From: an uncultured virus (IMG/VR IMGVR_UViG_3300031758_000014)
Taxonomy: Duplodnaviria; Heunggongvirae; Uroviricota; Caudoviricetes
Direction: 5' to 3' (one strand)
DNA length: 62,753 bases
IMG/VR virus record: IMGVR_UViG_3300031758_000014
The notes beneath the pieces were generated by a model. It saw nothing but the letters and a program-made list of their open reading frames with translations. It did no database searches and had not been told where the DNA came from. The translations under genes and the position numbers were made by a program. Shown here one piece after another: positions 6,017 through 28,418 of the stretch (its first letter is position 1; each line of letters opens with the position of its first letter).

Positions 6017-6048
6017 AAAAAACCCAACTGATTTTGTCAGTTGGGTTT
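6017..6048 (-). terminator. attenuator terminator of tRNA cluster A
   Basis: AAACCCAACTGA/TCAGTTGGGTTT hairpin plus U-run. Confidence 0.88.
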
Positions 6049-6073
6049 CATAATATTTTTTTATTAAAATATA

Positions 6074-6169
6074 TTATAATACACTTTTACTGACAATAGG
6101 TAATCTATACCCCGCCTCATAAGCCTCGTAGCCTCTCGCTTCTATTGATATGTTAACTATTGTTCTCAT
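6074..6169 (-). CDS. leader peptide A: MRTIVNISIEARGYEAYEAGYRLPIVSKSVL
   Basis: Manual translation; E/A/G/Y/I-rich core matches downstream tRNAs; TTGTCAGT antiterminator. Confidence 0.85.
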   Translation of the reverse strand: MRTIVNISIEARGYEAYEAGYRLPIVSKSVL

Positions 6170-6234: not shown

Positions 6235-6254
6235 TCTTTTTATATTTTTTTTAG

Positions 6255-6328
6255 TAGCGGGAGCTGGATTCGAACCAACGACCTCAAGGTTATGAGCCTT
6301 GCGAGCTACCAGACTGCTCTATCCCGCG
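6255..6328 (-). tRNA. initiator-type tRNA-Met(CAT)
   Basis: CGCGGGA start with C1 mismatch, A11:U24, CT CAT AA loop. Confidence 0.88.
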
Positions 6329-15090: not shown

Positions 15091-15162
15091 CGGTCTATGA
15101 GGGAATCGAACCCTCACCATCTGATAGACAGTCAGATATCCTAACCATTGGACCAATAGACC
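15091..15162 (-). tRNA. tRNA-Asp(GTC)
   Basis: TCTGA CT GTC TA TCAGA; G73. Confidence 0.9.
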
Positions 15163-15169
15163 TTATTTG

Positions 15170-15244
15170 TAGGGTAGACCGGACTCGAACCGACACTATG
15201 TCCTCATCCCAAATGAGGCGGCCTACCAATTGGCCAACTACCCT
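15170..15244 (-). tRNA. tRNA-Pro(TGG)
   Basis: CCTCA TT TGG GA TGAGG. Confidence 0.88.
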
Positions 15245-15290
15245 ATAATGTGAATTATTTTTACTCTATTCACAAAGAGATTATATTTTG

Positions 15291-15362
15291 TTGTGAAGAT
15301 AGGACTCGAACCTATATTTTTCATCTTCAAAGGATGATGTCCTGCCATTAGACGACTTCACA
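15291..15362 (-). tRNA. tRNA-Gln(TTG)
   Basis: U1:A72; TCATC CT TTG AA GATGA. Confidence 0.9.
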
Positions 15363-15365
15363 ATT

Positions 15366-16010: not shown

Positions 16011-16086
16011 ATGTATTTTTATTTTTATATATTAAAATCCGAACTTAAAAAAATACTAAAAATTAGGTTCGAGTTGAGTATAAAAT

Positions 16087-16120
16087 AAAAAAACCCAGTT
16101 AATCTTTGACTAACCGGGTT
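16087..16120 (-). terminator. attenuator terminator of tRNA cluster B
   Basis: AACCCGGUUAGUC/GAUUAACUGGGUU hairpin (G:U pairs form only on the minus strand) plus U-run. Confidence 0.88.
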
Positions 16121-16142
16121 CATATCATTTAAAGTTTTTTAT

Positions 16143-16244
16143 TTAACTTTTAGACAATAGAGCGTTAGTCCCAAATACTTTAGGTTGATCCTGATCTTGG
16201 ATTTGCGGGTTAACTACTGCGATATTTACGTTAAAAGTTTTCAT
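16143..16244 (-). CDS. leader peptide B: MKTFNVNIAVVNPQIQDQDQPKVFGTNALLSKS
   Basis: Manual translation; PQIQDQDQP core matches Gln/Pro/Asp/Pro tRNAs; GACTAAC antiterminator. Confidence 0.88.
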   Translation of the reverse strand: MKTFNVNIAVVNPQIQDQDQPKVFGTNALLSKS

Positions 16245-16295
16245 AATAATAATGTATATATAAAGTTTTTATTCTCTCTTTTTAATTTTATGATA

Positions 16296-16327
16296 CAAAG
16301 ATATAAAAGTTTTTAATATCTACCAAA
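16296..16327 (-). promoter_or_regulatory. Bacteroidota-type sigma-A promoter of cluster B
   Basis: TTTG-N20-TAtcTTTG. Confidence 0.8.
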
Positions 16328-17060: not shown

Positions 17061-17091
17061 ATATTTATATATTAAATATAAAATTCTTTTT

Positions 17092-17700
17092 ATGAATAAA
17101 TTATTATACTACTTTTTATACACTTTTAACTTCTTAAAATATAACTTTATTAAATTGTTATGTTTAATTAGTATCATACTATGTACTTTTTACTTAAAAG
17201 ACTATCAAAGAGCGGATACTATCGAGAAGACTGATATTGTTGCTCAAATGGAAATTGAAGGATATTACATATATACCTATAAAGAGATTAAAGAAAATAA
17301 TGTTGAATTTAATAACTTAACTTATGAAACTCCACAAAAAGTAGTCAATAATCAATTAATTACTAAATCATATAGTGGATATAATATTGCTGTTTGGGTC
17401 TTATTTATATCATCAGTTATAACATTCCTTTTGGTAGGTTTTTTAAATTATTGGTTTGATTTACATGGTGTTTTTGAGAAGACTGCTTTTCGTTTTATAA
17501 AAATGGATTTTGAAGATGGTTTTTATCATTATACACTATTTACTAGATTATTAAAAAAGAGTGATACTAAATTACAAATTAGAGAAGTTAGACATCTACT
17601 ATATAACTATTCTAATTTAAGAGAAACTAAATGGGAGCCAATCTTTATTTCCAAGGAAGAAATGAGAGAAAAAAAGTTAAATACTTTGTTTGATAAATAA
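17092..17700 (+). CDS. membrane protein with C-terminal tag (REKKLNTLF)
   Basis: Two hydrophobic segments; start reassigned to MNKLLY. Confidence 0.65.
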   Translation: MNKLLYYFLYTFNFLKYNFIKLLCLISIILCTFYLKDYQRADTIEKTDIVAQMEIEGYYIYTYKEIKENNVEFNNLTYETPQKVVNNQLITKSYSGYNIAVWVLFISSVITFLLVGFLNYWFDLHGVFEKTAFRFIKMDFEDGFYHYTLFTRLLKKSDTKLQIREVRHLLYNYSNLRETKWEPIFISKEEMREKKLNTLFDK

Positions 17701-17729
17701 TATTTTTTATCTTTATCAAAAATACTCTT

Positions 17730-18242
17730 ATGACACCAAATGTTACTTTAATACCAGATTATATCAACTCGGTTGATTTATTTGATTTTATTATAAACAA
17801 CTGTGACTTTGATAGATCTATGAAGGCACGTTGGACCGCATCATTTGGTAAGTCATATGATTATAACGGAATGAGTTATCGTGCTATTCCTTTCCCAGAC
17901 AATTTTACAAATATATTAAACTTGATTAGTGATACGATTGGATTTTTACCAAATAACTGTTTGATAAATCTTTATCATGATGGTAAGAGTTCAATGGGCT
18001 ATCATTCTGATAATACCGATATACTAACACCTGGAACTGGTGTGGTTATAATCTCATTGGGTAGTGACCGAATATTAAGATTTAAGAACAAGATAGATCC
18101 AACTATAATAGTTGATTATACTTTAACAAATGGTTCTTTATTTTACATGGATGACTTAGTTCAGTCAGATTGGTTACACTCAATTCCGAAGTCTGATACA
18201 ACATCACCTCGTATAAGTTTAACATTCAGAAATATAATATGA
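17730..18242 (+). CDS. AlkB-family 2OG-Fe(II) dioxygenase
   Basis: NCLINLY.DG..SMGYHSD, H.IPK, RISLTFR. Confidence 0.9.
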   Translation: MTPNVTLIPDYINSVDLFDFIINNCDFDRSMKARWTASFGKSYDYNGMSYRAIPFPDNFTNILNLISDTIGFLPNNCLINLYHDGKSSMGYHSDNTDILTPGTGVVIISLGSDRILRFKNKIDPTIIVDYTLTNGSLFYMDDLVQSDWLHSIPKSDTTSPRISLTFRNII

Positions 18243-18466
18243 TACATTGTCATATATGTTATTCTACTGATATTGATGAAGATTTCATATGTGATATGTG
18301 TGATCAATATTATTGTGAAGATTGTTCATACACATTTACATTACATTATCAACACCAAGGAGCAAGATGTTATTGGTGTTCTGATCAAAAGAGAAGAAAA
18401 CCTTTATCACCAGCTGATATAAGAGATAATAAGTTAAAAATAATTTTATGGAAAAATCACAATTAG
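18239..18466 (+). CDS. Cys-rich Zn-finger protein with C-terminal tag (RDNKLKIIL)
   Basis: Four CxxC pairs; shared motif. Confidence 0.7.
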   Translation: MIHCHICYSTDIDEDFICDMCDQYYCEDCSYTFTLHYQHQGARCYWCSDQKRRKPLSPADIRDNKLKIILWKNHN

Positions 18467-18861
18467 ATAATTTACTTAAAATTTACGTTATATTTCATAA
18501 AAACTTTTTCCATCATCCAGATTACATAATGGAAAAGTGGGATGCTATTATTGGAACCAAAGTAGAAAGAAAAATTTTAACAGAGACCTCTACAACTGGT
18601 CAAATTACTTGGTGTAATACTTGGTGTGTAAAATGGGAAGACTATTCTAATATAATTCATTTCTTTACGGTTTTAAGCTCTTATGACCTTGGTGAGATAA
18701 CACCAGGTAAAATTATTGATATATATGATAGTTATATTGGTGATCCACATTTAATAAATAAAACTAATTGGAATGGTATACACCGAGTTTCATTACATTA
18801 TATGGAAGACTATATTAAAAAATATTTAAGAGAATATAATTTAGAATTATGTTTAAGATAG
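18448..18861 (+). CDS. hypothetical protein with C-terminal tag variant (REYNLELCL)
   Basis: ORF track. Confidence 0.65.
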   Translation: MEKSQLDNLLKIYVIFHKNFFHHPDYIMEKWDAIIGTKVERKILTETSTTGQITWCNTWCVKWEDYSNIIHFFTVLSSYDLGEITPGKIIDIYDSYIGDPHLINKTNWNGIHRVSLHYMEDYIKKYLREYNLELCLR

Positions 18862-19079
18862 GAGATAGATTGGAATCAAGTGAATATGATAAAATTCAAA
18901 ATGGTATTGAATATGTCACTATAACAAGTATCAATAAGAAAAATAAAATTTATCATTGGGAAGCAGATGATAAATGGTTTGGTGGTAGAATTGTATCTGG
19001 ATATAGATTTGAAGATTCTAAACTTTATATTTCAAAAGAGGATAGAAGAGATAATAAACTAAATGATTTATTAAACTAA
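18849..19079 (+). CDS. hypothetical SH3-like protein with C-terminal tag (RDNKLNDLL)
   Basis: MFKIGD start; shared motif. Confidence 0.7.
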   Translation: MFKIGDRLESSEYDKIQNGIEYVTITSINKKNKIYHWEADDKWFGGRIVSGYRFEDSKLYISKEDRRDNKLNDLLN

Positions 19080-19081
19080 TT

Positions 19082-19309
19082 ATGTTTGTTATTATGTGTA
19101 AATTTAGAATTGGTGATATAGTTGAAATAGTTGCTATACCAAATAGTGAGTTATATAAAGTTATTAAATTTGATGGTGTTTTCATTGTTTGTAGAAACAT
19201 AAAACACTGTGATAATATAAAATATTCAGAGACATATTTCTTTGAGAGTGAGATTCATCTAAATAAATCCGAAACTAGAGATAATATTATAGATAACTTA
19301 TTAAGTTGA
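19082..19309 (+). CDS. hypothetical SH3-like protein with C-terminal tag (RDNIIDNLL)
   Basis: FRIGDIV; shared motif. Confidence 0.65.
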   Translation: MFVIMCKFRIGDIVEIVAIPNSELYKVIKFDGVFIVCRNIKHCDNIKYSETYFFESEIHLNKSETRDNIIDNLLS

Positions 19310-20006
19310 TTTTATCCATTTTCTGATAGCATTATCAGATACTCCATATCTTCGACCAGTCTCTTTATATCCAAACTCTTTTATTTCTTTTAATAAATCT
19401 TCAACCGATGGTCTATCTACTTTTCTAATTGATGTAGAATGACATTTATTACACATTTTGGATGTTTTTTTTATTTGTTTTCCACAAATACAATATTTAT
19501 TTTTAGATTTTTTATCATATTTTGATTTTCTTAGTTCCGATGAACTGCTCTTTTTTGTGGATTTACAGTATGTACTTGTCTGACTATGACAATTTGGACA
19601 CAATATTCTTAGATTTTCTAATCTATTATCTAAATTATCACCATTTTTATGATCTAAATGTAATGATATTGGTTTATCATTCCAGTTTTCTATACCACAT
19701 TCTTCACATTCATATATCTTTAAACCCTCATCAATTAGTCTTTTTTTAAGTTTATGTGTATTTGTATATGTTGAATTTTCAACTAAAATGTCTTCTATTG
19801 GGTATTTTTTATTAAAAGATCTGAATTTATCACCAGTGTTCCATGCCCTTCCGGTAATGACTTATATCAATATTATAAATATTGAAATATTTTTTTAAAC
19901 TCTTGTAGTTACCACCGATTGGTCTTATTCCAAGTTTTCTACAAACATCCGCTATTGATAGCGATTCAATAACAAATCTTTCTAATAAATCTTTATCATA
20001 CTTCAT
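19301..20006 (-). pseudogene. frameshifted HNH endonuclease (paralogue of 15366..16010)
   Basis: ATG at 20006 reads MKYDKDLLE..GGNYKSLKKY..IDISH; frame shifts near 19855 into TGRAWN..LDHKNG..ENLRILCPNCH..GVSDNAIRKW. Confidence 0.8.
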
Positions 20007-20076
20007 TATTATACATTTTAATTTTTTTTATATATTAAAATGTGTAGTCTTCCTTTACCAATGACTTTTAAGTTCG

Positions 20077-20159
20077 TACTCCTGGAGGGAGTTGAACCCT
20101 CACCCAAATCTATGGACAGCATTTTAAGTGCTGCGTGTCTGCCATTCCACCACAGGAGC
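20077..20159 (-). tRNA. tRNA-Leu(TAA)
   Basis: CAGCA CT TAA AA TGCTG; class II variable arm; A73. Confidence 0.9.
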
Positions 20160-20165
20160 AAATAA

Positions 20166-20269
20166 ATAGAGGAAAGTTTCAAAGAGTGAATGTGGATTTG
20201 AACCACTAAGTTTGATTTTAAGTCAAATTGTAAACCATTTACGAAGTAACTCTTTTGATCACCATCTAT
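20166..20269 (-). ncRNA. tRNA-like RNA (TAA anticodon loop) whose acceptor stem is replaced by the conserved stem module
   Basis: ATAGA TGGTGA TCAAAAGAGT TACTT, then D/anticodon/T hairpins, then ACTCTTTGA AACTTTCC TCTAT. Confidence 0.7.
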
Positions 20270-20273
20270 TTAG

Positions 20274-20346
20274 TTGGGAATGTGGGTTACGATCCCACTA
20301 CCTTTAGTATGTAACACTAACGCTCTCCCGATTGAGCTAATTCCCA
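20274..20346 (-). tRNA. tRNA-Val(TAC), T loop ATCGTAA
   Basis: TTAGT GT TAC AT ACTAA. Confidence 0.85.
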
Positions 20347-20355
20347 GTATTTTAG

Positions 20356-20428
20356 TAGGAGATATGGGTTACGATCCCATTGCCTTCACCATGTCGAAGT
20401 GACGCTCTACCAATTGAGCTAATCTCCT
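20356..20428 (-). tRNA. tRNA-Val(GAC), C33 and T loop ATCGTAA
   Basis: TCACT TC GAC AT GGTGA. Confidence 0.82.
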
Positions 20429-20437
20429 ATTATTTAG

Positions 20438-20507
20438 TACCGCACGTGAGGTTCGAACTCACTTAGTCAACCATATGAGGGTCGACCCTTTTCCACTAAG
20501 CCGCGGC
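20438..20507 (-). tRNA. atypical tRNA with CAT anticodon (Met or Ile2), shortened D arm
   Basis: GTCGACC CT CAT AT GGTTGAC; GTGAG TTCGAAC CTCAC. Confidence 0.6.
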
Positions 20508-20517
20508 ATTTACTTTG

Positions 20518-20591
20518 AGCACCAGGAGGGATTTGAACCCCCGTTAATACGCTTTGCAGGCGTATGCCTAAAACCACTCGACCACTGGTGC
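20518..20591 (-). tRNA. tRNA-Cys(GCA)
   Basis: TACGC CT GCA AA GCGTA; U73. Confidence 0.9.
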
Positions 20592-20596
20592 GTGTC

Positions 20597-21307
20597 TTAT
20601 TTTAACCATTTTCTTATAGTGTTATCAGAAACACCATATTTTCTACCAACCGATGAATATCCTAATTCAGATACCTCATGCTTAAGTTCTTCTATATCTG
20701 GTCTAATATTTTTTCGTTGTAGTAGTTTATAACATATATTACAATTAGTGGATTTTGAATTCATGAAATTACCACAACTACATTTTTTTTTATTTTCTTT
20801 TATTTTTTTCTCTTTCTCTTTTACTTTCTTTTTATTATTTTCACTCTTTGTCTTTTTACCAGAATAATTATCTGTTTTAGAATGACAATTTGGACATAAT
20901 ATCATTAGATTACTTAGATTATTATTAAATCTATCACCATCTATATGATGTAACTCAATTGGTATCTTCTCACCTAACCACTCACTTAAATTACAACTCT
21001 CACATATGTGATTTTTTATCCCGTCTTCTATTAACTTATTCTTTAATTTATGACTTGATAAATAAATATTATTATTTATATAATAAAGAGCTTCTTTTCT
21101 ACTATTTGATATTTTATACCCTTTAGCCCCTTGATTACCAAAATATTCAATACCCATTATATCTAAGTATGAATTAAGTGTGGAGTATCTACAATTTAAT
21201 ATTTTACATATTTCTATTTTTGGTTTATTTTCACTAACCATACTAATTATCAAATCTCTTTTCTCTAATATATCATGTCTCATTTTTTTTAATTCTTTTT
21301 TATACAC
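20597..21307 (-). CDS. HNH endonuclease with C-terminal HTH
   Basis: CESC..ELHHIDGD..NN...LCPNCHS; GVSDNTIRKW. Confidence 0.85.
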   Translation of the reverse strand: MYKKELKKMRHDILEKRDLIISMVSENKPKIEICKILNCRYSTLNSYLDIMGIEYFGNQGAKGYKISNSRKEALYYINNNIYLSSHKLKNKLIEDGIKNHICESCNLSEWLGEKIPIELHHIDGDRFNNNLSNLMILCPNCHSKTDNYSGKKTKSENNKKKVKEKEKKIKENKKKCSCGNFMNSKSTNCNICYKLLQRKNIRPDIEELKHEVSELGYSSVGRKYGVSDNTIRKWLK

Positions 21308-21335
21308 TATATATAAAAAAGTAATGTGTCTGTTG

Positions 21336-21426
21336 TATCAGTGGTCGGACTCGAACCGACAATGTTTTCCACGTGGGTATTAGTTCCTAAGACTAACGCG
21401 TTTCAACCAAATTTCGCCACACTGAC
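21336..21426 (-). tRNA. tRNA-Leu(TAG)
   Basis: TTAGT CT TAG GA ACTAA; long variable arm. Confidence 0.9.
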
Positions 21427-21432
21427 ATATCG

Positions 21433-21504
21433 AGCTGATGGAGGGACTTGAACCCCCATTTCATCTTTACAAGAGACGAGTAATGACCGTTATACGACAT
21501 CAGC
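21433..21504 (-). tRNA. tRNA-Thr(TGT)
   Basis: CGTCT CT TGT AA AGATG; GCTGATG acceptor. Confidence 0.88.
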
Positions 21505-21510
21505 ATTTAG

Positions 21511-21583
21511 TAGTTGATGCGGGTTACGATCCCACTACCTCCGACGTATCAGATCGGCGCTCTACCAATTGAGCTAATCAACT
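21511..21583 (-). tRNA. tRNA-Ile(GAT), T loop ATCGTAA
   Basis: CCGAT CT GAT AC GTCGG. Confidence 0.88.
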
Positions 21584-21589
21584 ATTTAG

Positions 21590-21662
21590 TAGTCCTACCG
21601 GGATTCGAACCCAGACGAAACGCTTAGAAGGCGCTTATGCTATCCAGTTACATCATAGAACC
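21590..21662 (-). tRNA. tRNA-Arg(TCT)
   Basis: AGCGC CT TCT AA GCGTT. Confidence 0.88.
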
Positions 21663-21670
21663 ATTTTTTG

Positions 21671-21755
21671 TCGGTAGGGTGGGATTTGAACCCACGTTAT
21701 ACTTTCGTATCCAGTGTATCAGACTGGTCCCTGAAAACCGCTCGGGTACCTACCG
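21671..21755 (-). tRNA. tRNA-Ile(GAT) with long variable arm
   Basis: CCAGT CT GAT AC ACTGG; ATAC GAAA GTAT variable hairpin. Confidence 0.8.
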
Positions 21756-22315
21756 TTTAATCTATCTAATCTTTTTTGTTCTTCTAAATTGAAATGTATT
21801 TCACCATGACAATTTCTACAAACTAAAATACATTTATCAACTTCACTTTTTAATTTCTCAAAAGAGTTTGTTTTTCCACTAATTGTAAAGTCTTTCTCTT
21901 CGGGGTTTAAATGGTGGAATTCTAATGATGTTATACATTTGTTATAACCACATATTTCACAATTATTACCTTTATACTCTACTAATTTTATTTTAACTCT
22001 TCTTCTCCATTCTATTACATTTCTCGAATTTCTATTATCTTCTCTTAATTTATCTGATTTATTTTTATATCTTTTAATTGTACTTATAGATAAGTTAAAT
22101 TTATCAGAAGCCTCTTTTATACTATGATTTTCACAATATTTTTTTATTTCATTTATATCCAAATCATTTACTTTTTTAAGTTTACCAATATCATTCATTC
22201 CATATCTCTTACAATGATATCCAATTGTCGATTTAGATATTTTTAGTTCTTTACTTATTTCATCATAACTTTTACCTTCATTTCTTAATTCAATTATTTT
22301 ATCTTTTGTTTTCAT
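21719..22315 (-). CDS. HTH-HNH endonuclease (paralogue of 4070..4621)
   Basis: CEICGYNKC..LEFHH..CILVCRNCHGEIH; 3' end overlaps tRNA-Ile. Confidence 0.85.
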   Translation of the reverse strand: MKTKDKIIELRNEGKSYDEISKELKISKSTIGYHCKRYGMNDIGKLKKVNDLDINEIKKYCENHSIKEASDKFNLSISTIKRYKNKSDKLREDNRNSRNVIEWRRRVKIKLVEYKGNNCEICGYNKCITSLEFHHLNPEEKDFTISGKTNSFEKLKSEVDKCILVCRNCHGEIHFNLEEQKRLDRLNGRYPSGFQGPV

Positions 22316-22383
22316 AATCTCTAATATATTTTACTTATATATTAAAACTTATGAGCTTTCTTTAACCATTTTGGTTAAGTTAG

Positions 22384-22457
22384 CGGATTTGATAGGACTC
22401 GAACCTACTATCTTCTGCTTAACAGGCAGTAGCTTATACCACTTAAGCTTCAAATCC
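22384..22457 (-). tRNA. tRNA-Asn(GTT)
   Basis: CTGC CT GTT AA GCAG; G73. Confidence 0.85.
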
Positions 22458-22469
22458 TTTATATTTTTG

Positions 22470-22557
22470 AGGGCCCGGTAGGATTCGAACCTACTTTATT
22501 TCAATTTTTCATACAGTGATTAACAGTCACCAGCTAAAACCATTAAGCTACTGACCC
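22470..22557 (-). tRNA. tRNA-Asn(GTT) with long variable region
   Basis: GGTGA CT GTT AA TCACT; about 20-nt A-rich variable region. Confidence 0.72.
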
Positions 22558-22568
22558 GTATGTAAAAT

Positions 22569-22602
22569 AAAAAACCCTCAGATTTTTTGTCTGAGGGTTT
22601 TT
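22569..22602 (-). terminator. attenuator terminator of tRNA cluster C
   Basis: AAAAACCCTCAGA/TCTGAGGGTTTTT hairpin. Confidence 0.88.
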
Positions 22603-22625
22603 CAAGTTTTTTATTCTATAAAAAT

Positions 22626-22742
22626 TTATAGAGTAGTTAAGTCATGAAAACCCTCACTATGTCTAATACATAACGTATTTAACACCATCACTGTATTCAG
22701 TGTGTTATTTACATTAATCATATTTAAGTTAATAGTTCTCAT
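22626..22742 (-). CDS. leader peptide C: MRTINLNMINVNNTLNTVMVLNTLCIRHSEGFHDLTTL
   Basis: Manual translation; first 27 residues use only N/L/M/I/V/T/C/R, matching the cluster; TGAGGGTTTT antiterminator. Confidence 0.85.
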   Translation of the reverse strand: MRTINLNMINVNNTLNTVMVLNTLCIRHSEGFHDLTTL

Positions 22743-22788
22743 TGTTTTTATATTTTAATTGTTTTTATTCTGTTTTAATTTTACTTTA

Positions 22789-22922
22789 CAAAGATACAAA
22801 AGTTTTTTAAATATCCAAAAAGTTTTTTTAATTTTTTATTATATATTAAAAAACTTTTCTCCCTTTTGTGTTTTTGTTATATTTATACTACAAATTTAGT
22901 AAAAAGTTTTAAATATACCAAA
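22789..22922 (-). promoter_or_regulatory. tandem Bacteroidota-type promoters of cluster C
   Basis: TTTG-N19-TAtcTTTG (22789-22819) and TTTG-N20-TAaaTTTG (22891-22922), with a TAATATATA motif between. Confidence 0.78.
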
Positions 22923-22925
22923 TTT

Positions 22926-23327
22926 TTATAATATTTTTTTCCAAAATCTTTCTGGAAGATGTATGTTCTCAATATTTACACACTCATTAAATAGTGGTGC
23001 AACATCTTTTGGTTTTAATCCAGCTAAACCACATCCTACTTCAGTTACTAAAAATATCAAATTCTGATTGTTTTTAGCAAATTCAATAAAATCATCAACA
23101 AATGGTTTTATCTCAACTATTGAAAGTGTTCTTCTAATAGAAGCGTCTTTGGTTGGTATTCCATAAGTTCTACCTTGTAAACCAGCGGCTTGACCCCATT
23201 TAGCTCCCCAGGTAAGAGCTTGTTTAGCTGCTCCTTTTCCGTGTCTACCAGATAAATTAGAACCAAAAACAAATATTTCATTTGTGTTTAGTTTTGTGAT
23301 GTTATCTGATGTTACTCTATTTTCCAT
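22926..23327 (-). CDS. macrodomain-like phage protein (A1S_2505-type)
   Basis: IFVFGSNL.G.HG.GAA; YGIPTK; VTEVGCGLAG. Confidence 0.75.
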   Translation of the reverse strand: MENRVTSDNITKLNTNEIFVFGSNLSGRHGKGAAKQALTWGAKWGQAAGLQGRTYGIPTKDASIRRTLSIVEIKPFVDDFIEFAKNNQNLIFLVTEVGCGLAGLKPKDVAPLFNECVNIENIHLPERFWKKIL

Positions 23328-23356
23328 ACGTGTTATATTAAAAATGAATAATAAGT

Positions 23357-23653
23357 TTATCTACCTCTTTTTCTATTGTGTGTTGTTGTACTATCATAGA
23401 AGTCAGGTTCTTTTTTAGAAACCCATTTTATGAATTTTTCCATCTCTGGATGTTCTTTAACCAACTCAGCATTATTATAATTCTTTTCTAATTCTTTTTC
23501 TGTAAATAATGAATGTATTTTTCGGTGACATATTTTATGTAACCATTCAGTTTCTTTACCACCTCTACATTTGGGAAGGAAATGGTGACGATCAACAAAT
23601 TGATTTTCCCACATTTCTCTATCACAAATAGGACAAATGCCAATTACTTTCAT
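23357..23653 (-). CDS. small HNH endonuclease
   Basis: MKVIGICPICD..HHFLPK..H.ICH.KIH; upstream part of the track ORF is tRNA-Ser. Confidence 0.8.
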   Translation of the reverse strand: MKVIGICPICDREMWENQFVDRHHFLPKCRGGKETEWLHKICHRKIHSLFTEKELEKNYNNAELVKEHPEMEKFIKWVSKKEPDFYDSTTTHNRKRGR

Positions 23654-23656
23654 AAG

Positions 23657-23743
23657 AGGAAGAAGTGGGAGTCGAACCCAGCCCGAGTTAACGAGCCCTT
23701 GTTTTCCAAACAAGTGAGAGGACCACCTCTTCTCGCATCTTCC
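23657..23743 (-). tRNA. tRNA-Ser(GGA)
   Basis: CTTGT TT GGA AA ACAAG; long variable arm. Confidence 0.8.
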
Positions 23744-23745
23744 GT

Positions 23746-23832
23746 TGGCGGAGAGCAGAGTATTCGAAACCCACACGTTGTCGTGCCACTCGCTTAGCAG
23801 GCGGTGCTGAGGACCTCCTCAGTTTACTCTCC
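23746..23832 (-). tRNA. tRNA-Ser(GCT)
   Basis: CT GCT AA loop; long variable arm; GCCA end. Confidence 0.82.
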
Positions 23833-23840
23833 ATTTATTT

Positions 23841-23927
23841 TGGCGGAAGAGTGAGGTATCGATCCCCATACCTTTCGGTACCACTAGTTTTCAAGACTAG
23901 GTCAAGCGCCAGCTTAATTACTCTTCC
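23841..23927 (-). tRNA. tRNA-Ser(TGA)
   Basis: CTAGT CT TGA AA ACTAG; long variable arm; GCCA end. Confidence 0.85.
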
Positions 23928-23935
23928 ATATGTTG

Positions 23936-24021
23936 CGGAAAGAGAGGGATTCGAACCCTCGGATCTTGTTTCAGATCTACGGTTTTCAAGACCGCTCCAC
24001 TCAACCAACGTTACCCTTTCC
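23936..24021 (-). tRNA. tRNA-Ser(TGA)
   Basis: GCGGT CT TGA AA ACCGT; long variable arm. Confidence 0.85.
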
Positions 24022-24029
24022 AATTTTTG

Positions 24030-24101
24030 TAGTCATAGAGGGAATTGAACCCCCACCTGATCGTTCGTAGCGACCTGTCCTATCCGTTAGACGATATGAC
24101 T
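24030..24101 (-). tRNA. tRNA-Arg(ACG)
   Basis: GGTCG CT ACG AA CGATC. Confidence 0.88.
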
Positions 24102-24105
24102 AAAT

Positions 24106-24138
24106 AAAAAAACCCTCAGATTATTAATCCGAGGGTTT
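24106..24138 (-). terminator. attenuator terminator of tRNA cluster D
   Basis: AAACCCUCGGAUUA/UAAUCUGAGGGUUU hairpin plus U-run. Confidence 0.88.
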
Positions 24139-24163
24139 ATTATATAATATTATTATTACCTAA

Positions 24164-24238
24164 TTATAAACACAATCGGATTACATGTCCACTACTCGAG
24201 CGACTTGACGAAACTAATATGTTTAAAATTGTTCTCAT
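24164..24238 (-). CDS. leader peptide D: MRTILNILVSSSRSSSGHVIRLCL
   Basis: Manual translation; SSSRSSS matches Arg(ACG) plus four Ser tRNAs; TAATCCGA antiterminator. Confidence 0.9.
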   Translation of the reverse strand: MRTILNILVSSSRSSSGHVIRLCL

Positions 24239-24296
24239 AATATTTTTTATTTCTTTGTTTATATATTACAAATGTAATACTTCCTTTTTAATTTTC

Positions 24297-24509
24297 CTAA
24301 TTTATTATTTCTTTTATTTCTTCTATTGTAAAAAGTTTACCTTTATTATCATTTTCACATTTAGTATAACCTTCAATAAATGCTTCAATTATATTTTTAT
24401 CGGTTATTCCTTTTTCTTCTGCCCATTTTTGAGCTTTCTTTTCAATCTTAGAAGGTTTTCTTCTATGATATGGTGTTAAGTCAGTATAGTTATCACTTCT
24501 TTCTGGCAT
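24297..24509 (-). CDS. hypothetical protein
   Basis: ORF track. Confidence 0.55.
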   Translation of the reverse strand: MPERSDNYTDLTPYHRRKPSKIEKKAQKWAEEKGITDKNIIEAFIEGYTKCENDNKGKLFTIEEIKEIIN

Positions 24510-24526
24510 ATTTGTTTTTTATTTTT

Positions 24527-24657
24527 TGGTAGGGAGATGGGACTCGAACCCATGACCACGCGGTTAACAGCCGAAGTAACTCTTCTAATCAACACTCTTT
24601 CGAGGTAAAGTTATAGAAAAGTAAAGTACGTGCTCTACCAACTGAGCTACTCCCTAC
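24527..24657 (-). tRNA. tRNA-Asn(GTT) interrupted by a 55-nt structured insertion between positions 28 and 29
   Basis: Removing 24574-24628 restores CGCGG CT GTT AA CCGCG; the insert is the conserved module closed by CTC-GAAA-GAG. Confidence 0.8.
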
Positions 24658-24674
24658 ATATATATTTTAATTTG

Positions 24675-24746
24675 TTGCCCCGGTGGGGATTGAACCCACG
24701 ATCCCCTGATTAAGAGTCAGGTGCTTTACCACTCAGCTACAAGGCA
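24675..24746 (-). tRNA. tRNA-Lys(CTT)
   Basis: CCTGA CT CTT AA TCAGG. Confidence 0.88.
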
Positions 24747-24752
24747 ATTTAG

Positions 24753-24825
24753 TGGAGCCGACGGGTTACGATCCCGTTCCTCTGGTTTTTCAGACCAGCG
24801 CAATGACCACATCTGCCACAGCTCC
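24753..24825 (-). tRNA. tRNA-Phe(GAA)
   Basis: CTGGT CT GAA AA ACCAG; identical to 25243-25315. Confidence 0.88.
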
Positions 24826-24835
24826 TTATATTTTG

Positions 24836-24909
24836 GGTGAATAACGGGCTACGATCCCGCGACCTCTGGATTCACAATCCAGCGCTCTTACCAACTGAGC
24901 TATATTCAC
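24836..24909 (-). tRNA. tRNA-His(GTG)
   Basis: CTGGA TT GTG AA TCCAG; C73. Confidence 0.88.
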
Positions 24910-24911
24910 AG

Positions 24912-24984
24912 TGACCCCGGTGGGTTACGATCCCACTCTCCCCATATTAAAAGTATGGTGCTTTCCCGATTAAGCTACGAAGTC
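24912..24984 (-). tRNA. tRNA-Lys(TTT)
   Basis: CCATA CT TTT AA TATGG; T loop ATCGTAA. Confidence 0.86.
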
Positions 24985-24994
24985 ATATTTTTAG

Positions 24995-25065
24995 CACGGG
25001 TACCAAGATTCGAACTCGGAACAACGGTTTTGGAGACCGGCATGATACCATTTCACTATACCCGT
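24995..25065 (-). tRNA. tRNA-Trp(CCA)
   Basis: CGGT CT CCA AA ACCG; G73. Confidence 0.88.
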
Positions 25066-25074
25066 GTATGTTAG

Positions 25075-25147
25075 CGCGTCACCAAGGACTCGAACCCTGA
25101 CCCTTCGGGTTGGAACCGAAGATGCTAAGCCATTACACCAATGACGC
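25075..25147 (-). tRNA. tRNA-Trp(CCA)
   Basis: TTCGG TT CCA AC CCGAA; G73. Confidence 0.85.
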
Positions 25148-25158
25148 TTGTATTTTAG

Positions 25159-25232
25159 TGACCCCGGTGGGATTCGAACCCACGGTCTTCCGATTAAAAG
25201 TCGGAGGCTTGAACCAACTCAGCTACGAAGTC
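25159..25232 (-). tRNA. tRNA-Lys(TTT)
   Basis: TCCGA CT TTT AA TCGGA; identical to 25410-25483. Confidence 0.9.
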
Positions 25233-25242
25233 ATATTTTTAG

Positions 25243-25315
25243 TGGAGCCGACGGGTTACGATCCCGTTCCTCTGGTTTTTCAGACCAGCGCAATGACCAC
25301 ATCTGCCACAGCTCC
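25243..25315 (-). tRNA. tRNA-Phe(GAA)
   Basis: Identical copy of 24753-24825. Confidence 0.88.
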
Positions 25316-25323
25316 TTATTTTG

Positions 25324-25398
25324 GGTGTACGACCGGTAACGATCCGGCTATCTTCACTTTCACAGAGTGACGGGTCTACCATTTCCCCTTCATACACC
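25324..25398 (-). tRNA. tRNA-His(GTG)
   Basis: G-1:C73; TCACT CT GTG AA AGTGA. Confidence 0.86.
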
Positions 25399-25409
25399 AT
25401 TTATTTTAG

Positions 25410-25483
25410 TGACCCCGGTGGGATTCGAACCCACGGTCTTCCGATTAAAAGTCGGAGGCTTGAACCAACTCAGCTACGAAGTC
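25410..25483 (-). tRNA. tRNA-Lys(TTT)
   Basis: TCCGA CT TTT AA TCGGA. Confidence 0.9.
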
Positions 25484-25492
25484 ATAAGAAAC

Positions 25493-25521
25493 AAAAAAAC
25501 CCAAGTCTTTTGAACTTGGGT
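25493..25521 (-). terminator. attenuator terminator of tRNA cluster E
   Basis: ACCCAAGU/ACUUGGGU hairpin plus U-run. Confidence 0.86.
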
Positions 25522-25543
25522 CTGTTTGTAGTTATATTTTATT

Positions 25544-25663
25544 TTATAAAGTCGTTAAGTCTTCAAAAAATAAACACAATACTTTTCCAGTACCAAGTTC
25601 TGATTTATTGCTAAACCATTTGCTTGATTTACTAAAATGTTTATGTTTATTAATTGTTCTCAT
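25544..25663 (-). CDS. leader peptide E: MRTINKHKHFSKSSKWFSNKSELGTGKVLCLFFEDLTTL
   Basis: Manual translation; K/H/F/W/N core matches the cluster; GAACTTGG antiterminator. Confidence 0.88.
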   Translation of the reverse strand: MRTINKHKHFSKSSKWFSNKSELGTGKVLCLFFEDLTTL

Positions 25664-25711
25664 TATTTCTATATATTAAAAGTTTTTTCTCTCTTTGTTA
25701 ATTTTATACTA

Positions 25712-25833
25712 CAAATTTAATAAAAGTTTTTATATCTACCAAATTATTTGTAAAAATTATTGAAAATTGTATCTAAATCGTTTCCTTTTTCAATAACAAT
25801 ACAAATATAAGGAGATTATTTTAATCTACCAAA
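25712..25833 (-). promoter_or_regulatory. tandem Bacteroidota-type promoters of cluster E
   Basis: TTTG-N20-TAaaTTTG (25712-25743) and TTTG-N20-TAtaTTTG (25802-25833). Confidence 0.78.
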
Positions 25834-25913
25834 TTATTTAGGTCCGTAACCTAATAAATTAATTTCATTTAATATTCTATTAAAATCCTTTATGAAATCT
25901 ATAAACTTCTTCA

Positions 25914-27758
25914 TTATTCTATCCAATTTTCTAATACTTCTTTTTCTAAGTTAAGACTTCTTAATAAGTTTTTAACTTTGTTTAAATATTCATCTTCATC
26001 TTCAAACTTAATTCTTGGTAATCTACCATCTAACACACCATTATAATAATCAAGTTTTTTATCAATAGCATCTATCAATTTTTCAAGATTAGGATTTCTG
26101 AATAAATAGTGTAACTCATCTGTGTAGTAACCTTTACCAGGTTTGATATCTAATAATTCACAATGTGATCTTGATAACATACCTAAATCGGTATCATAAA
26201 CCTCTATTCTTAGATCTGTTATATAATATTTACCCATTTCTTCGGAGTAAGATAACATACCATCATAAAAATTATAATGTACACCATCATGGTCTAAGTA
26301 ATTTTCACAAGCTAATCTACTTGTACTGATAGCATCACTATAAACATCAGACTCATCAGAAACATCACCATAATCAAATCTGGATATACTTATGGACCAA
26401 CTATATATGTCATCATCGACTGAAGTTATTATTGATGTGTTATCACCTTCATAATAACTTCTATCTAAAAATTCAGAGTAGTAAGCATCATGTTCATTAA
26501 TATATTCTTCTCTAAATTCATCATAAACTATATCATTTGAGTCTTCTGGATACCATCCTAAATATCTCCTATTACCTACTGATACTTCTACAGCATCATT
26601 TCTTCGTATGTATGATTCTAACCAATCAGAGTAAACAGCTTCATCTTCTGGAATCCTTTCATCATAATAATCAGACCAAACTCCACTATAATCTTCATAA
26701 GTACCATCTGTACAAGTTAATCCCCAATCTTGATCTTCGTTATCATCATTGTATAATAATCTATTATCAACATCTAATCTTTTGAATGTATCCATATATG
26801 GGTAGTAATTAAACTTAGCTTTATCTAATCTAATTCTGATGTCAATCCAATTATGATTTTCGCCTTTATATGTTATATCTCTTACTTGACTATAACCAGA
26901 GTATGTTCTTCTAGCCCATCCCATTTCATCTGAATAATCTTTGAATAATTTAGTTATTGAGTCATCCTTTCCGTAAATTCTATCCATGAAGAATTCGGCT
27001 TCTTCTATATCACTTGATTTATGATCATTTAATTTCCAAACAAGTGCTCTACCTAATACTTTATCTTCTTCATTTAAATAAACAAGAAGTTGTACTATTT
27101 CTGTATTTTCAACATAAATATCTAAATATTTTTGACATTTATCATATCTCATACAAGAATTTCCTAAATCTCCAGCTTCTTCTTCATAATTAGATACTAA
27201 ATAATACTTTCTAATATCTTCTCCCTTAACTAAAATGAATTTATTTTCACCAGGTTTGTTTAAGTTTTTGAAGTTATTGACAAACTCTTCAACTTCTTTT
27301 GAAGAGTATTTACCTGGAAATATTTGATTGACTAATCTACCAATACCTGTTGAGTTTCTTGATTTTGTACTTAATTCATAATCTTGATATGTGAATAGGT
27401 TTCGTATCTCACCATCTGTTATAGTACCCCCTTTCATCTTTTCCTCTATATCATTAAATAAGTTTTTTGCTATATCTGGGGTGTATTTAGCCTCAAGTCC
27501 TTTTTTTATTAGGGAAACTGCTTTTTTGAATTGTGTGAATTTAATATCACCTTCATTATCACCTAATGAAATAAAAGTCATATCTGGTTTTACATCGGTG
27601 TATTCAACTTCTAATAGATTTTGAGCAATTACACTCTTTTTTAGATTTCTTAATTTTATTAAAGAATCTTTGAAATCTCTTGTATAGAAAATCATAGATT
27701 CATTTATAGCACTTTCTAATATTAAGTCTTCTTTAAATGAATTATATCTGTGTAACAT
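25914..27758 (-). CDS. conserved phage protein (SCMR..GRALVW..DRIY..YPYMDTF), putative virion-packaged
   Basis: 614 aa ORF; motif set recurrent in large phages; N-terminal YNSF...LILE. Confidence 0.7.
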   Translation of the reverse strand: MLHRYNSFKEDLILESAINESMIFYTRDFKDSLIKLRNLKKSVIAQNLLEVEYTDVKPDMTFISLGDNEGDIKFTQFKKAVSLIKKGLEAKYTPDIAKNLFNDIEEKMKGGTITDGEIRNLFTYQDYELSTKSRNSTGIGRLVNQIFPGKYSSKEVEEFVNNFKNLNKPGENKFILVKGEDIRKYYLVSNYEEEAGDLGNSCMRYDKCQKYLDIYVENTEIVQLLVYLNEEDKVLGRALVWKLNDHKSSDIEEAEFFMDRIYGKDDSITKLFKDYSDEMGWARRTYSGYSQVRDITYKGENHNWIDIRIRLDKAKFNYYPYMDTFKRLDVDNRLLYNDDNEDQDWGLTCTDGTYEDYSGVWSDYYDERIPEDEAVYSDWLESYIRRNDAVEVSVGNRRYLGWYPEDSNDIVYDEFREEYINEHDAYYSEFLDRSYYEGDNTSIITSVDDDIYSWSISISRFDYGDVSDESDVYSDAISTSRLACENYLDHDGVHYNFYDGMLSYSEEMGKYYITDLRIEVYDTDLGMLSRSHCELLDIKPGKGYYTDELHYLFRNPNLEKLIDAIDKKLDYYNGVLDGRLPRIKFEDEDEYLNKVKNLLRSLNLEKEVLENWIE

Positions 27759-27791
27759 TATAAAAAATGAATTTTAATTATATATTAAAAT

Positions 27792-28418
27792 TCATTCCTC
27801 ATTTTCATACTCTTTTCTTATACATCTAACTGAAAGGAAATCTCCCAAGTCGGCTTTTCCTCTTCCAACATTGTATATTTCATCAAACTCTATACCCCAT
27901 GCTTTTTCACCATCTTTAGTTGATGTCCAGTAGAATGATCCTTTTATAACAATTAATGACTTTTTAATTGTATCGTTAATAGTATCGGTCTTGTAACCTT
28001 TGTATCCATTGTTATTATTTACAAATGCTTTTAGTTGATCTTCGCTTAATGTATTTATTAGTGTGTCCCAATCTTGTTTAGATGGTAGAAACCAACCAGT
28101 TGGACAAGAACTCATTGCTCCTTCATAGTTTAGTTTTAAAGAATCGTAAGTAGGATTTATAAAACTACCAATTCCTTTTTGATCTCTTTGAGTTTCAAGA
28201 TTTAGTAGGTATTTTTGATCTTTATATGGTATTAAATCATCTCGCATCCAAGAAACAAAGTGTTTTATACCACCATTATCATCGAATATGGGAATTTCTA
28301 TAACTCTATATAAATGAAAGTTATGATGTATATGACCTTCTTTTAATCTAACTTGTTTATCTTGTGATAAAGATATAAGTGATAAAAGTGTAAAGATTAA
28401 TAATATAAAATATCTCAT
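27792..28418 (-). CDS. secreted FISUMP (Fib_succ_major)-domain protein
   Basis: Signal peptide; CPTGWFLPS..DW, YWTST, SVRCIR. Confidence 0.75.
   Translation of the reverse strand: MRYFILLIFTLLSLISLSQDKQVRLKEGHIHHNFHLYRVIEIPIFDDNGGIKHFVSWMRDDLIPYKDQKYLLNLETQRDQKGIGSFINPTYDSLKLNYEGAMSSCPTGWFLPSKQDWDTLINTLSEDQLKAFVNNNNGYKGYKTDTINDTIKKSLIVIKGSFYWTSTKDGEKAWGIEFDEIYNVGRGKADLGDFLSVRCIRKEYENEE

What the first reader, a model, noticed from the sequence alone, without database searches (positions are those of the whole stretch)
22569..22922. Attenuator C: N/L/M/I/V/T/C/R leader for the 13-gene cluster
The first 27 residues of leader 22742-22626 use only M, R, T, I, N, L, V and C, precisely the set encoded downstream (Asn x2, Ile x2, Arg TCT, Thr, Leu x2, Cys, CAT, Val x2). 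Both Arg codons are AGA, matching Arg(TCT). TGAGGGTTTT (22656-22647) complements the terminator 5' arm (22601-22592).
Basis: partly seen in the sequence, partly recalled or inferred. Interest (0 to 1): 0.87.

Follow-up and report, generated by a model that had tools for sequence, protein, structure and literature searches.

The report
Leader-peptide attenuator gating phage tRNA genes
A huge freshwater phage puts a tiny translated test gene, written in the codons of the tRNAs that follow it, plus a switchable transcription stop in front of its tRNA genes, so it probably makes those tRNAs only when ribosomes read those codons slowly.

Summary
Window 22742-22626 (- strand) is a 38-codon ORF. Codons 1-27 use only Met, Arg, Thr, Ile, Asn, Leu, Val and Cys, the same eight amino acids served by the tRNA block that starts 10 nt after a strong terminator (22604-22568). 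This is the longest such run in the six-frame translation (27-28 residues; next 15; 200 shuffles reach 20). A 10-nt leader segment is the exact complement of the terminator's 5' arm.

It is one of five such units in the window. Each leader matches its own tRNA block: the true pairing is the single best of 120 permutations. Two 630-640 kb relatives carry seven units each (best of 5040), one with seven Gln codons in a row before four tRNA-Gln genes. Leader-to-terminator pairing beats shuffles in 15 of 19 leaders.

Best reading (0.85): his/trp-style ribosome-mediated attenuation, here applied to tRNA genes. Nothing was measured; a region 1:2 pairing is not supported.

Eight literature searches found no description of this. 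The scan has noted the same design before on other DNA (96 notes, at least 92 genomes). I class it as a new variant of a known kind.

The parts
22891..22922 (-). Distal promoter-like site of Bacteroidota sigma-A type (TTTG, about 20 nt, TAnnTTTG)
   Evidence: Pattern scan: 12 matches in the window against 4.6 expected, and 6 of the 12 lie upstream of leaders A, C, D and E. The consensus is as quoted in passages of PMC7366714 and PMC9723704.
22789..22819 (-). Proximal promoter-like site of the same type, about 45 nt before the leader start codon
   Evidence: The extended sequence is shared with the sites before leaders A, D and E.
22626..22742 (-). Leader ORF C: 38 codons plus a TAA stop
   Evidence: An ORF of 34-38 codons is kept in 8 of 8 aligned relatives, and indels in the control part are multiples of three.
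22662..22739 (-). Control codons 2-27: only Arg, Thr, Ile, Asn, Leu, Met, Val and Cys codons
22646..22657 (-). Region 2: the leader segment (codons 29-33) that pairs with the terminator's 5' arm to form the antiterminator
   Evidence: Exact 10-nt complement. Duplex dG -13.9 against a shuffle mean of -7.2, p = 0.008. This pairing forms in the fold of the transcript cut before the 3' arm.
22615..22632 (-). Small spacer hairpin that contains the leader stop codon and lies inside the antiterminator loop
   Evidence: RNAfold, full-length and truncated transcripts.
22568..22604 (-). Intrinsic terminator: 15-pair stem (5 G-C pairs), 7-nt loop, T run
   Evidence: it has the longest stem (15 pairs) of the 16 terminator-like sites listed for 14000-27000. 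Stem sequence invariant in 8 of 8 relatives.
20076..22557 (-). Regulated tRNA block: 11 firm and 2 weak tRNA genes, interrupted by two HNH homing-endonuclease ORFs (22315-21719 and 21307-20597)
   Evidence: The first tRNA starts 10 nt after the terminator.
25497..25663 (-). Sister attenuator A: leader with 6 Lys, 2 His, 4 Phe and 1 Trp codon, plus a terminator. It precedes a block of 10 Lys, His, Phe and Trp tRNA genes.
24110..24238 (-). Sister attenuator B: leader with 6 Ser and 3 Arg codons, plus a terminator. It precedes the Arg(ACG) and Ser tRNA genes.
16091..16244 (-). Sister attenuator D: 8 of codons 13-21 are Pro, Gln or Asp. It precedes an HNH ORF and then the Gln, Pro, Asp, Pro tRNA genes.
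6019..6169 (-). Sister attenuator E: 11 of codons 10-21 are Glu, Ala, Gly or Tyr, and there are three ATA codons. It precedes the Tyr, Ile(TAT), Gly and Ala tRNA genes and a candidate Glu tRNA gene.
6254..6328 (-). tRNA-Met(CAT) with a mismatched first acceptor pair (initiator-like). It is the only tRNA gene in the window with no leader or terminator before it.
   Evidence: The same placement, just before the Glu/Tyr leader, is seen in relative LR745206. That a first-pair mismatch marks initiator tRNA is recalled knowledge.

Best explanation
This is a ribosome-mediated (leader-peptide) transcription attenuator that gates a block of phage tRNA genes.

Proposed working:
- Host RNA polymerase starts at a Bacteroidota-type promoter and transcribes a 38-codon leader.
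- The leader's codons 2-27 are read by exactly the tRNA species encoded downstream.
- If those aminoacyl-tRNAs are plentiful, the ribosome runs to the stop codon. The stop lies in the 41-nt stretch between leader region 2 (codons 29-33) and the terminator's 5' arm. With a ribosome sitting there, region 2 cannot close onto the 5' arm. The terminator hairpin then forms and transcription ends 10 nt before the first tRNA gene.
- If any of the sensed tRNAs is scarce, the ribosome stalls upstream and region 2 stays free. It pairs with the 5' arm as that arm emerges, the terminator cannot form, and the tRNA genes are transcribed.

The result is negative feedback on decoding capacity. Five such units in this window together cover elongator tRNAs for all 20 amino acids, and only the initiator-like tRNA-Met stands outside them.

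Shown here: the anatomy, the codon-to-tRNA match, the specific complementarity, and conservation in relatives. Inferred: that the ORF is translated, the direction of the switch, and the physiological signal.
For: Anatomy:
- The leader, the terminator and the 10-nt gap to the first tRNA leave no room for a promoter between them.
- Bacteroidota-type promoter matches lie upstream.

Codon match:
- 27 of 37 leader codons are read by the unit's own block against a background of 0.329 (P = 7e-7).
- The run is the longest set-restricted run in the window (27-28 residues against 15 for the next; shuffles reach 20).

Specificity across units:
- The true leader-to-block pairing is the unique best of 120 permutations in the window, and of 5040 in each of LR756502 and LR745206.
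- A leader's own block gives the top residual in 19 of 19 leaders.
- Every amino acid of every block occurs in its leader, with one exception.
- One relative has seven consecutive Gln codons before four tRNA-Gln genes.
- Codon-level detail: AGA with Arg(TCT) in C, CGN with Arg(ACG) in B, three ATA with Ile(TAT) in E.

Antiterminator:
- The duplex between the leader and the terminator 5' arm plus loop beats 500 dinucleotide shuffles at p <= 0.05 in 15 of 19 leaders (mean z -2.5).
- The pairing segment always lies in the last third of the ORF or at its stop.
- In a swap test, a leader's own arm averages -12.8 kcal/mol against -8.4 for unrelated arms, and 23 of 31 leaders beat at least 90% of unrelated arms.
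- In the Arg/Ser and Lys/His/Phe families the leader segment and the terminator arm differ together between relatives.

Coding constraint: indels in the control part are multiples of three in the 8-sequence alignment.

Plausibility in the host phylum: a Flavobacterium transcriptome paper reports strong clues for leader-peptide attenuation upstream of amino-acid operons (passage of PMC9723704).

Rfam's His_leader and Phe_leader models give sub-threshold hits on units B and C.
Against: No experiment or transcript map exists. Only one RNA-library contig, from a relative, spans the leader, the terminator and a tRNA-like end, and it may be DNA carry-over.

Structure:
- A classical region 1:2 (anti-antiterminator) pairing is not supported: 2 of 19 leaders reach p <= 0.05, mean z -0.38.
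- Region 2 ends 18 nt before the stop codon. A terminating ribosome may therefore not cover it fully, and the model leans on steric exclusion inside the loop.

Limits of the codon match:
- Residues 2-5 are shared by the window's other leaders, so they are not specific to C.
- Relatives keep the single Cys codon although the Cys tRNA of LR745206 lies far from this block.
- The Met match rests on a tRNA below Rfam's cut-off.
- Leader B uses three AGT codons for which no tRNA was found in this window, though relatives' blocks hold Ser(GCT).

Other caveats:
- The two homing-endonuclease ORFs inside block C are each preceded by an AT-rich motif that might be a promoter. tRNAs beyond the first two Asn genes may therefore get attenuator-independent transcription.
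- Within the C family the terminator and region 2 are almost invariant, so that family alone gives no covariation.
- Whether transcription and translation are coupled tightly enough in the unknown host was not tested.
Confidence: 0.85

Rival explanations
1. The device works as described, but its natural signal is amino-acid starvation or poor charging rather than tRNA abundance. The leader reports aminoacyl-tRNA supply in general, and the tRNA genes are simply one more part of the translation apparatus under that control.
For: A leader ORF cannot tell a missing tRNA from an uncharged one; this follows from established knowledge of the trp and his attenuators. The match is clearest at the amino-acid level, and some codons lack a cognate phage tRNA in this window, such as AGT in leader B.
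Against: Making more tRNA does not relieve amino-acid starvation, so the feedback would be futile. Some codon-level matches go beyond the amino acid: AGA against CGN for the two Arg tRNAs, and ATA against ATT/ATC for the two Ile tRNAs.
Confidence: 0.2
2. The hairpins are constitutive leaky terminators that only set a fixed low level of tRNA transcription. The short ORFs are untranslated, or they encode small peptides whose composition reflects common descent.
For: The leaders share their first residues, and two of them share their last residues, as paralogues would. No significant region 1:2 pairing was found.
Against: Common descent does not explain why each paralogue is enriched in a different amino-acid set that equals its own tRNA block (19 of 19 leaders; unique best of 120, 5040 and 5040 permutations). 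Nor does it explain why each leader pairs specifically with its own terminator arm.
Confidence: 0.06
3. The terminators end the upstream genes' transcripts, and the tRNA blocks have their own promoters. The ORFs occur by chance in AT-rich DNA.
For: AT-rich DNA gives many short ORFs. Terminators are expected after genes.
Against: There are only 8-13 nt between terminator and first tRNA in units A, B and C. Promoter-type matches lie upstream of the leaders, not downstream of the terminators. The statistics argue against chance.
Confidence: 0.02
4. The sense is reversed: stalling promotes termination, for example through Rho or by freeing the terminator, so that tRNA genes are shut off when decoding is slow.
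For: The direction of the switch was not measured.
Against: The geometry argues against it. The control codons lie upstream of region 2, and region 2 competes with the terminator's 3' arm for the 5' arm. A ribosome held upstream therefore leaves the antiterminator free. Positive feedback of this kind would also starve the phage of tRNA when it needs it most (inference).
Confidence: 0.04

Closest known systems
Leader-peptide attenuators of enterobacterial amino-acid operons (hisL with its run of His codons; the multivalent thr and ilv leaders; trpL, leuL, pheL)
   Same: A short translated leader rich in the sensed codons. An intrinsic terminator follows it, with an alternative pairing that overlaps the terminator's 5' arm, and the ribosome's position decides the outcome. 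Leader C senses eight amino acids, as the multivalent thr and ilv leaders sense several. The relatives' run of seven Gln codons parallels the His run of hisL.
   Different: The regulated genes are tRNAs, not biosynthetic enzymes, so the sensed molecule and the product are the same kind of molecule. The elements sit in a phage. No significant region 1:2 stem was found. Rfam's His_leader and Phe_leader models score 24-29 bits against cut-offs of 49-55.
pheM leader of the pheST operon (attenuation of an aminoacyl-tRNA synthetase; recalled, not checked in a paper here)
   Same: Ribosome-mediated attenuation controls a component of the decoding apparatus rather than a biosynthetic pathway.
   Different: It controls a protein gene for one amino acid, and it is bacterial.
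T-box riboswitches
   Same: They read the state of a specific tRNA and switch between a terminator and an antiterminator ahead of translation-related genes.
   Different: A T-box binds uncharged tRNA directly through a specifier loop and needs no leader translation. No T-box match was found at gathering level in the window or at E <= 1 in 19900-24700.
This scan's earlier notes on 'leader-peptide attenuator gating phage tRNA genes' (e1-2978539, e1-5737766, e1-5974121 and others; unpublished AI notes)
   Same: The same design on other phage DNA: a promoter, a codon-matched leader and a terminator before a tRNA block. In one note a homing endonuclease sits between switch and tRNAs, as in unit D here.
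   Different: Other genomes. A look-up with this unit's sequence found no look-alike among earlier windows.

Membership tests
Leader-peptide (ribosome-mediated) transcription attenuators | A short ORF in the 5' leader enriched in codons of the sensed amino acids | tested here: met
   27 of 37 codons against a background of 0.329, P = 7e-7. Longest set-restricted run in the window. Own block ranks top in 19 of 19 leaders.
Leader-peptide (ribosome-mediated) transcription attenuators | An intrinsic terminator between leader and regulated genes, with no promoter in between | tested here: met
   15-pair stem plus T run at 22604-22568. The first tRNA starts at 22557.
Leader-peptide (ribosome-mediated) transcription attenuators | An antiterminator: a leader segment that competes for the terminator's 5' arm | tested here: met
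   Exact 10-nt complement. p = 0.008 against shuffles for C, and 15 of 19 leaders at p <= 0.05. Swap test: 23 of 31 leaders.
Leader-peptide (ribosome-mediated) transcription attenuators | An anti-antiterminator (region 1:2) stem covering the control codons | tested here: not met
   2 of 19 leaders at p <= 0.05, mean z -0.38; for C, p = 0.11. The switch appears to have two states, with the ribosome itself blocking the antiterminator.
Leader-peptide (ribosome-mediated) transcription attenuators | The regulated genes make or charge the sensed amino acid | tested here: not met
   The genes downstream are tRNAs and homing endonucleases.
Leader-peptide (ribosome-mediated) transcription attenuators | Termination depends on leader translation and on aminoacyl-tRNA supply | not testable with these tools
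   Only contigs of RNA libraries were available, and they cannot show transcript ends or levels.
Rfam leader families (His_leader RF00514, Phe_leader RF01859) | Score at or above the family's gathering cut-off | tested here: not met
   27 bits against a cut-off of 49 and 24.4 bits against 55 on unit C; 28.8 bits on unit B. No leader family appears at gathering level.
T-box riboswitch | A match to the T-box covariance model (specifier loop and T-box motif) | tested here: not met
   No match at gathering level in the whole window or at E <= 1 in 19900-24700.

The most novel reading that the evidence does not exclude
A huge phage splits the elongator tRNAs for all 20 amino acids among five operons. 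Each operon is gated by its own codon-matched ribosome sensor, and only the initiator-like tRNA is left ungated. Together the sensors would act as a decoding-capacity homeostat. The phage would test, codon family by codon family, whether the infected cell can still read its AT-rich genes. It would switch on only the tRNA sets that have run short, for instance after host tRNA pools are drained by phage demand, by host shut-off, or by tRNA-cleaving defence nucleases. This would be the first case in which the product of an attenuated operon is the very molecule that the leader senses.
Probability: 0.6. Interest if true: 0.9.

Novelty: new variant of a known kind. Interest (0 to 1): 0.85.

Why it matters
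Phage tRNA genes are usually discussed as a constitutive supplement for codon usage or as replacements for tRNAs cut by host defences (abstract of PMC10264068, seen in the listing). How their expression is controlled is little explored. A codon-matched leader attenuator would mean that phages measure decoding speed directly and dose each tRNA set on demand.

This extends a textbook mechanism to a new class of target, one in which the sensed molecule and the product coincide. It is directly testable with reporter fusions. It could explain why tRNAs are grouped by amino acid in huge-phage genomes. It also offers compact natural sensors of codon-specific translation speed.

Tried and rejected
I used a near-identical 67-kb record (G001) and relatives instead.
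- Column-wise covariation: in the C family the terminator and region 2 are almost invariant. In the Lys/His/Phe family the pairing register shifts by one column between members. I therefore did not run the column-count tool and used shuffle and swap tests instead.
- Region 1:2 stem: looked for and not supported.
- RNA evidence: the RNA-library runs hold only small shares. X15 and X17 cover mostly tRNA-like pieces of other organisms. One 219-nt contig of X16 (about 92% alike) runs from 6 nt before the leader start through the terminator. Contigs cannot show ends or levels, and DNA may be present in such libraries.
- Sigma-70 promoter scan: not above shuffles (87 found against 77.6 expected) and not used.
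- Start-of-leader pattern with two mismatches: not above chance (43 found against 38 expected).
The permutation test was then computed from stored files by coordinates.
- Literature: eight searches for this mechanism returned nothing on leader-peptide control of tRNA genes. I saw only listings and abstracts, plus passages of PMC9723704 and PMC7366714. Subscription journals are not covered.

Full report
THE DNA

The window is 28% G+C. It carries phage genes: a baseplate-spike-like domain, a GH108 lysozyme domain and a UvsW-like helicase. It also carries 33 ARAGORN tRNA genes, all on the minus strand, plus several more that only Rfam sees.

Its nearest public relatives are uncultured phages of 634-642 kb (LR756502, LR745206, LR756504) and, more distantly, Lak phages. 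Near-identical DNA occurs in lake and freshwater metagenomes. No whole genome is held for the window.

THE OBSERVATION

The ORF at 22742-22626 (minus strand) has 38 codons. Its first 27 residues use only Met, Arg, Thr, Ile, Asn, Leu, Val and Cys. Both Arg codons are AGA.

Downstream lie the tRNA genes Asn x2, Ile(GAT) x2, Arg(TCT), Thr, Leu(TAG), Cys, Val x2 and Leu(TAA). Two sub-threshold tRNA-like genes follow them, one with a CAT anticodon loop. The 10 bases 22656-22647 are the exact reverse complement of 22601-22592, the 5' arm of a terminator with a 15-pair stem, a 7-nt loop and a T run. The first tRNA starts 10 nt after that terminator.

IS IT MORE THAN CHANCE?

- The run of residues from this eight-letter set is the longest anywhere in the six-frame translation of the window. 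It is 27-28 residues long. The next longest is 15, and 200 shuffles of the window never exceed 20.
- The set makes up 0.416 of residues in long ORFs.
- Under strict wobble rules, 27 of 37 leader codons are read by tRNAs of the unit's own block, against a background of 0.329 (P = 7e-7).

FIVE UNITS, NOT ONE

The same layout precedes every tRNA block of the window.

- Leader A (25663-25544) has 6 Lys, 2 His, 4 Phe and 1 Trp codon. It precedes ten Lys, His, Phe and Trp tRNA genes.
- Leader B (24238-24164) has 6 Ser and 3 Arg codons. It precedes Arg(ACG) and Ser tRNAs.
- Leader D (16244-16143) has 8 Pro, Gln or Asp codons within codons 13-21. It precedes Gln, Pro, Asp, Pro.
- Leader E (6169-6074) has 11 Glu, Ala, Gly or Tyr codons within codons 10-21, and three ATA codons. 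It precedes Tyr, Ile(TAT), Gly and Ala tRNAs and a candidate Glu tRNA.

Each leader ends 21-26 nt before a strong terminator. In 14000-27000, the four minus-strand terminator-like hairpins with 11 or more pairs are exactly units A-D.

Assigning leaders to blocks at random gives the observed match in 1 of 120 permutations, and each leader's own block has the top residual (5 of 5). Together the five blocks serve all 20 amino acids (Glu and Met depend on unconventional or weak genes). The only tRNA without a leader is a tRNA-Met whose first acceptor pair is mismatched, as in initiator tRNAs (that rule is recalled). An elongation sensor could not report on an initiator, so this fits the model (inference).

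RELATIVES

LR756502 and LR745206 each carry seven units. The families are Lys/His/Phe, Arg/Ser, Glu/Tyr, Ile/Gly/Ala, the C family, Pro/Asp and Gln.

In each genome the true pairing is the single best of 5040 permutations. The own block ranks top in 7 of 7 leaders, and only one block amino acid is missing from its leader. One Gln leader holds seven consecutive Gln codons before four tRNA-Gln genes.

Where the relatives have two nested leaders (Glu/Tyr, then Ile/Gly/Ala), this window has one leader that combines both sets. Leader content therefore follows operon layout.

Further family members were found in IMG/VR contigs. In the eight-sequence C alignment the ORF is kept at 34-38 codons. Indels within the control part are multiples of three, while the tail and spacer vary freely.

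THE SWITCH

When the transcript is folded up to the terminator loop, the 5' arm pairs with a leader segment in nearly all of the 19 units. For C, 9 of 12 arm positions pair.

Against 500 dinucleotide shuffles of the leader, the best duplex with the 5' arm plus loop is significant at p <= 0.05 in 15 of 19 units (mean z -2.5). For C the values are -13.9 against -7.2 kcal/mol, p = 0.008. The pairing segment always lies late in the ORF, just after the control codons.

In a swap test over 31 distinct units, a leader's own arm averages -12.8 kcal/mol against -8.4 for unrelated arms. In 23 of 31 units the own arm beats at least 90% of the unrelated arms. In the Arg/Ser and Lys/His/Phe families the leader segment and the arm change together between relatives.

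A classical 1:2 stem is not supported (2 of 19). The stop codon always lies between region 2 and the terminator. For C, the stop sits inside a small hairpin in the 41-nt loop.

My model is therefore a two-state switch. A ribosome that reaches the stop occupies the loop and keeps region 2 from closing on the 5' arm, so the terminator forms. A ribosome stalled on the control codons leaves region 2 free, and the polymerase reads through into the tRNA genes. The direction and the dependence on translation are inferred.

PROMOTERS AND HOST

Matches to the Bacteroidota sigma-A promoter pattern number 12 in the window against 4.6 expected. Six of the 12 lie just upstream of leaders A (two), C (two), D and E. 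The consensus is quoted in passages of PMC7366714 and PMC9723704. This points to a Bacteroidota host and to host RNA polymerase, for which intrinsic terminators are meaningful. PMC9723704 also reports strong clues for leader-peptide attenuation before amino-acid operons in a Flavobacterium (passage).

WEAKNESSES

- Nothing was measured. One RNA-library contig of a relative spans the leader, the terminator and a tRNA-like end, but it may be DNA carry-over.
- Residues 2-5 of leader C are common to the window's other leaders.
- Relatives keep the Cys codon without a Cys tRNA in the block.
- The Met match relies on a weak tRNA.
- Leader B's AGT codons lack a cognate tRNA in this window, although relatives' blocks hold Ser(GCT).
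- Two homing-endonuclease ORFs split block C. Each is preceded by an over-represented AT-rich motif that might be a promoter, so distal tRNAs may escape the attenuator in part.

WHAT IS KNOWN

The mechanism is that of the his, trp, thr and ilv leaders. Family membership fails on three counts: the nature of the regulated genes, the 1:2 stem, and the Rfam scores (24-29 bits against cut-offs of 49-55). T-box elements are absent.

Eight full-text searches found no description of leader-peptide attenuation of tRNA genes. I saw listings and abstracts only, apart from the two papers quoted, and subscription journals are not covered.

This scan has noted the same design before on other DNA: 96 notes in at least 92 genomes. 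One was later checked with the remark that what was seen stands. None of those shown names a paper.

VERDICT

It is a new variant of a known kind. Confidence in the mechanism is 0.85 and interest is 0.85.

Noticed in passing
window 3515-3612 (- strand); L042 and L043: Candidate circularly permuted tRNA-Glu(UUC) gene. The anticodon arm, T arm and 3' acceptor strand lie upstream of the 5' acceptor strand and D arm, with a 14-nt linker between them. Joining the two parts by coordinates gives an ARAGORN tRNA-Glu of 72-76 nt. Two relatives of 385-476 kb (76-83% identity) keep the arrangement and show compensatory changes at two acceptor pairs. The outer flanks can pair with each other. One listing-only search for permuted tRNA together with phage showed no paper on bacteriophages.
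   Followed up: partly
window 24528-24656 (- strand): A tRNA with an insertion of about 53-68 nt after the D arm, the same place as the junction of the permuted gene. Rfam scores it at 43.6 bits with 68 extra bases. ARAGORN reads it as an intron-bearing tRNA with anticodon TTA, but an Asn-type GTT loop is also readable. The end of the insertion resembles the flank of the permuted gene and the sequence before weak tRNA 20184-20251. It is too small for a group I intron.
   Followed up: partly
window, 40 sites, e.g. 6338-6351, 16026-16039, 22336-22349, 25670-25683, 27779-27792 (- strand): A 14-nt AT-rich motif is over-represented: 40 matches with up to two mismatches, against 9.9 expected. Where I compared sites with ORF starts, it sat 6-22 nt before them, including leaders A and B, and 9 nt before the mature end of tRNA-Met. 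It may be a phage-specific promoter or a processing signal.
   Followed up: partly
window 22469-22557, 21670-21755, 21335-21426, 14938-15027, 3996-4084 (- strand): Several tRNAs that normally have a short variable loop (Asn, Ile, Pro, Gly) are 86-90 nt long, with 12-20 extra bases in the variable region.
   Followed up: no
window 4070-4621, 5255-5881, 15366-16010, 20597-21307, 21719-22315 (- strand): Five HNH/NUMOD-type homing-endonuclease ORFs sit inside the tRNA blocks. One lies between attenuator D and its tRNAs.
   Followed up: partly
window 25544-25570 and 22626-22649 (- strand): Leaders A and C end with the same last five residues although their control parts differ, and two IMG/VR relatives of leader A keep this tail. 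This could reflect gene conversion, or a peptide that slows release at the stop codon.
   Followed up: no
window 5935-6010 and 4678-4758 (- strand): Degenerate tRNA-like genes. One has a Tyr-type GTA loop and is not called by ARAGORN or by Rfam even at E <= 1. The other lacks a D arm and has a TAT (Ile) anticodon loop (39.5 bits).
   Followed up: no
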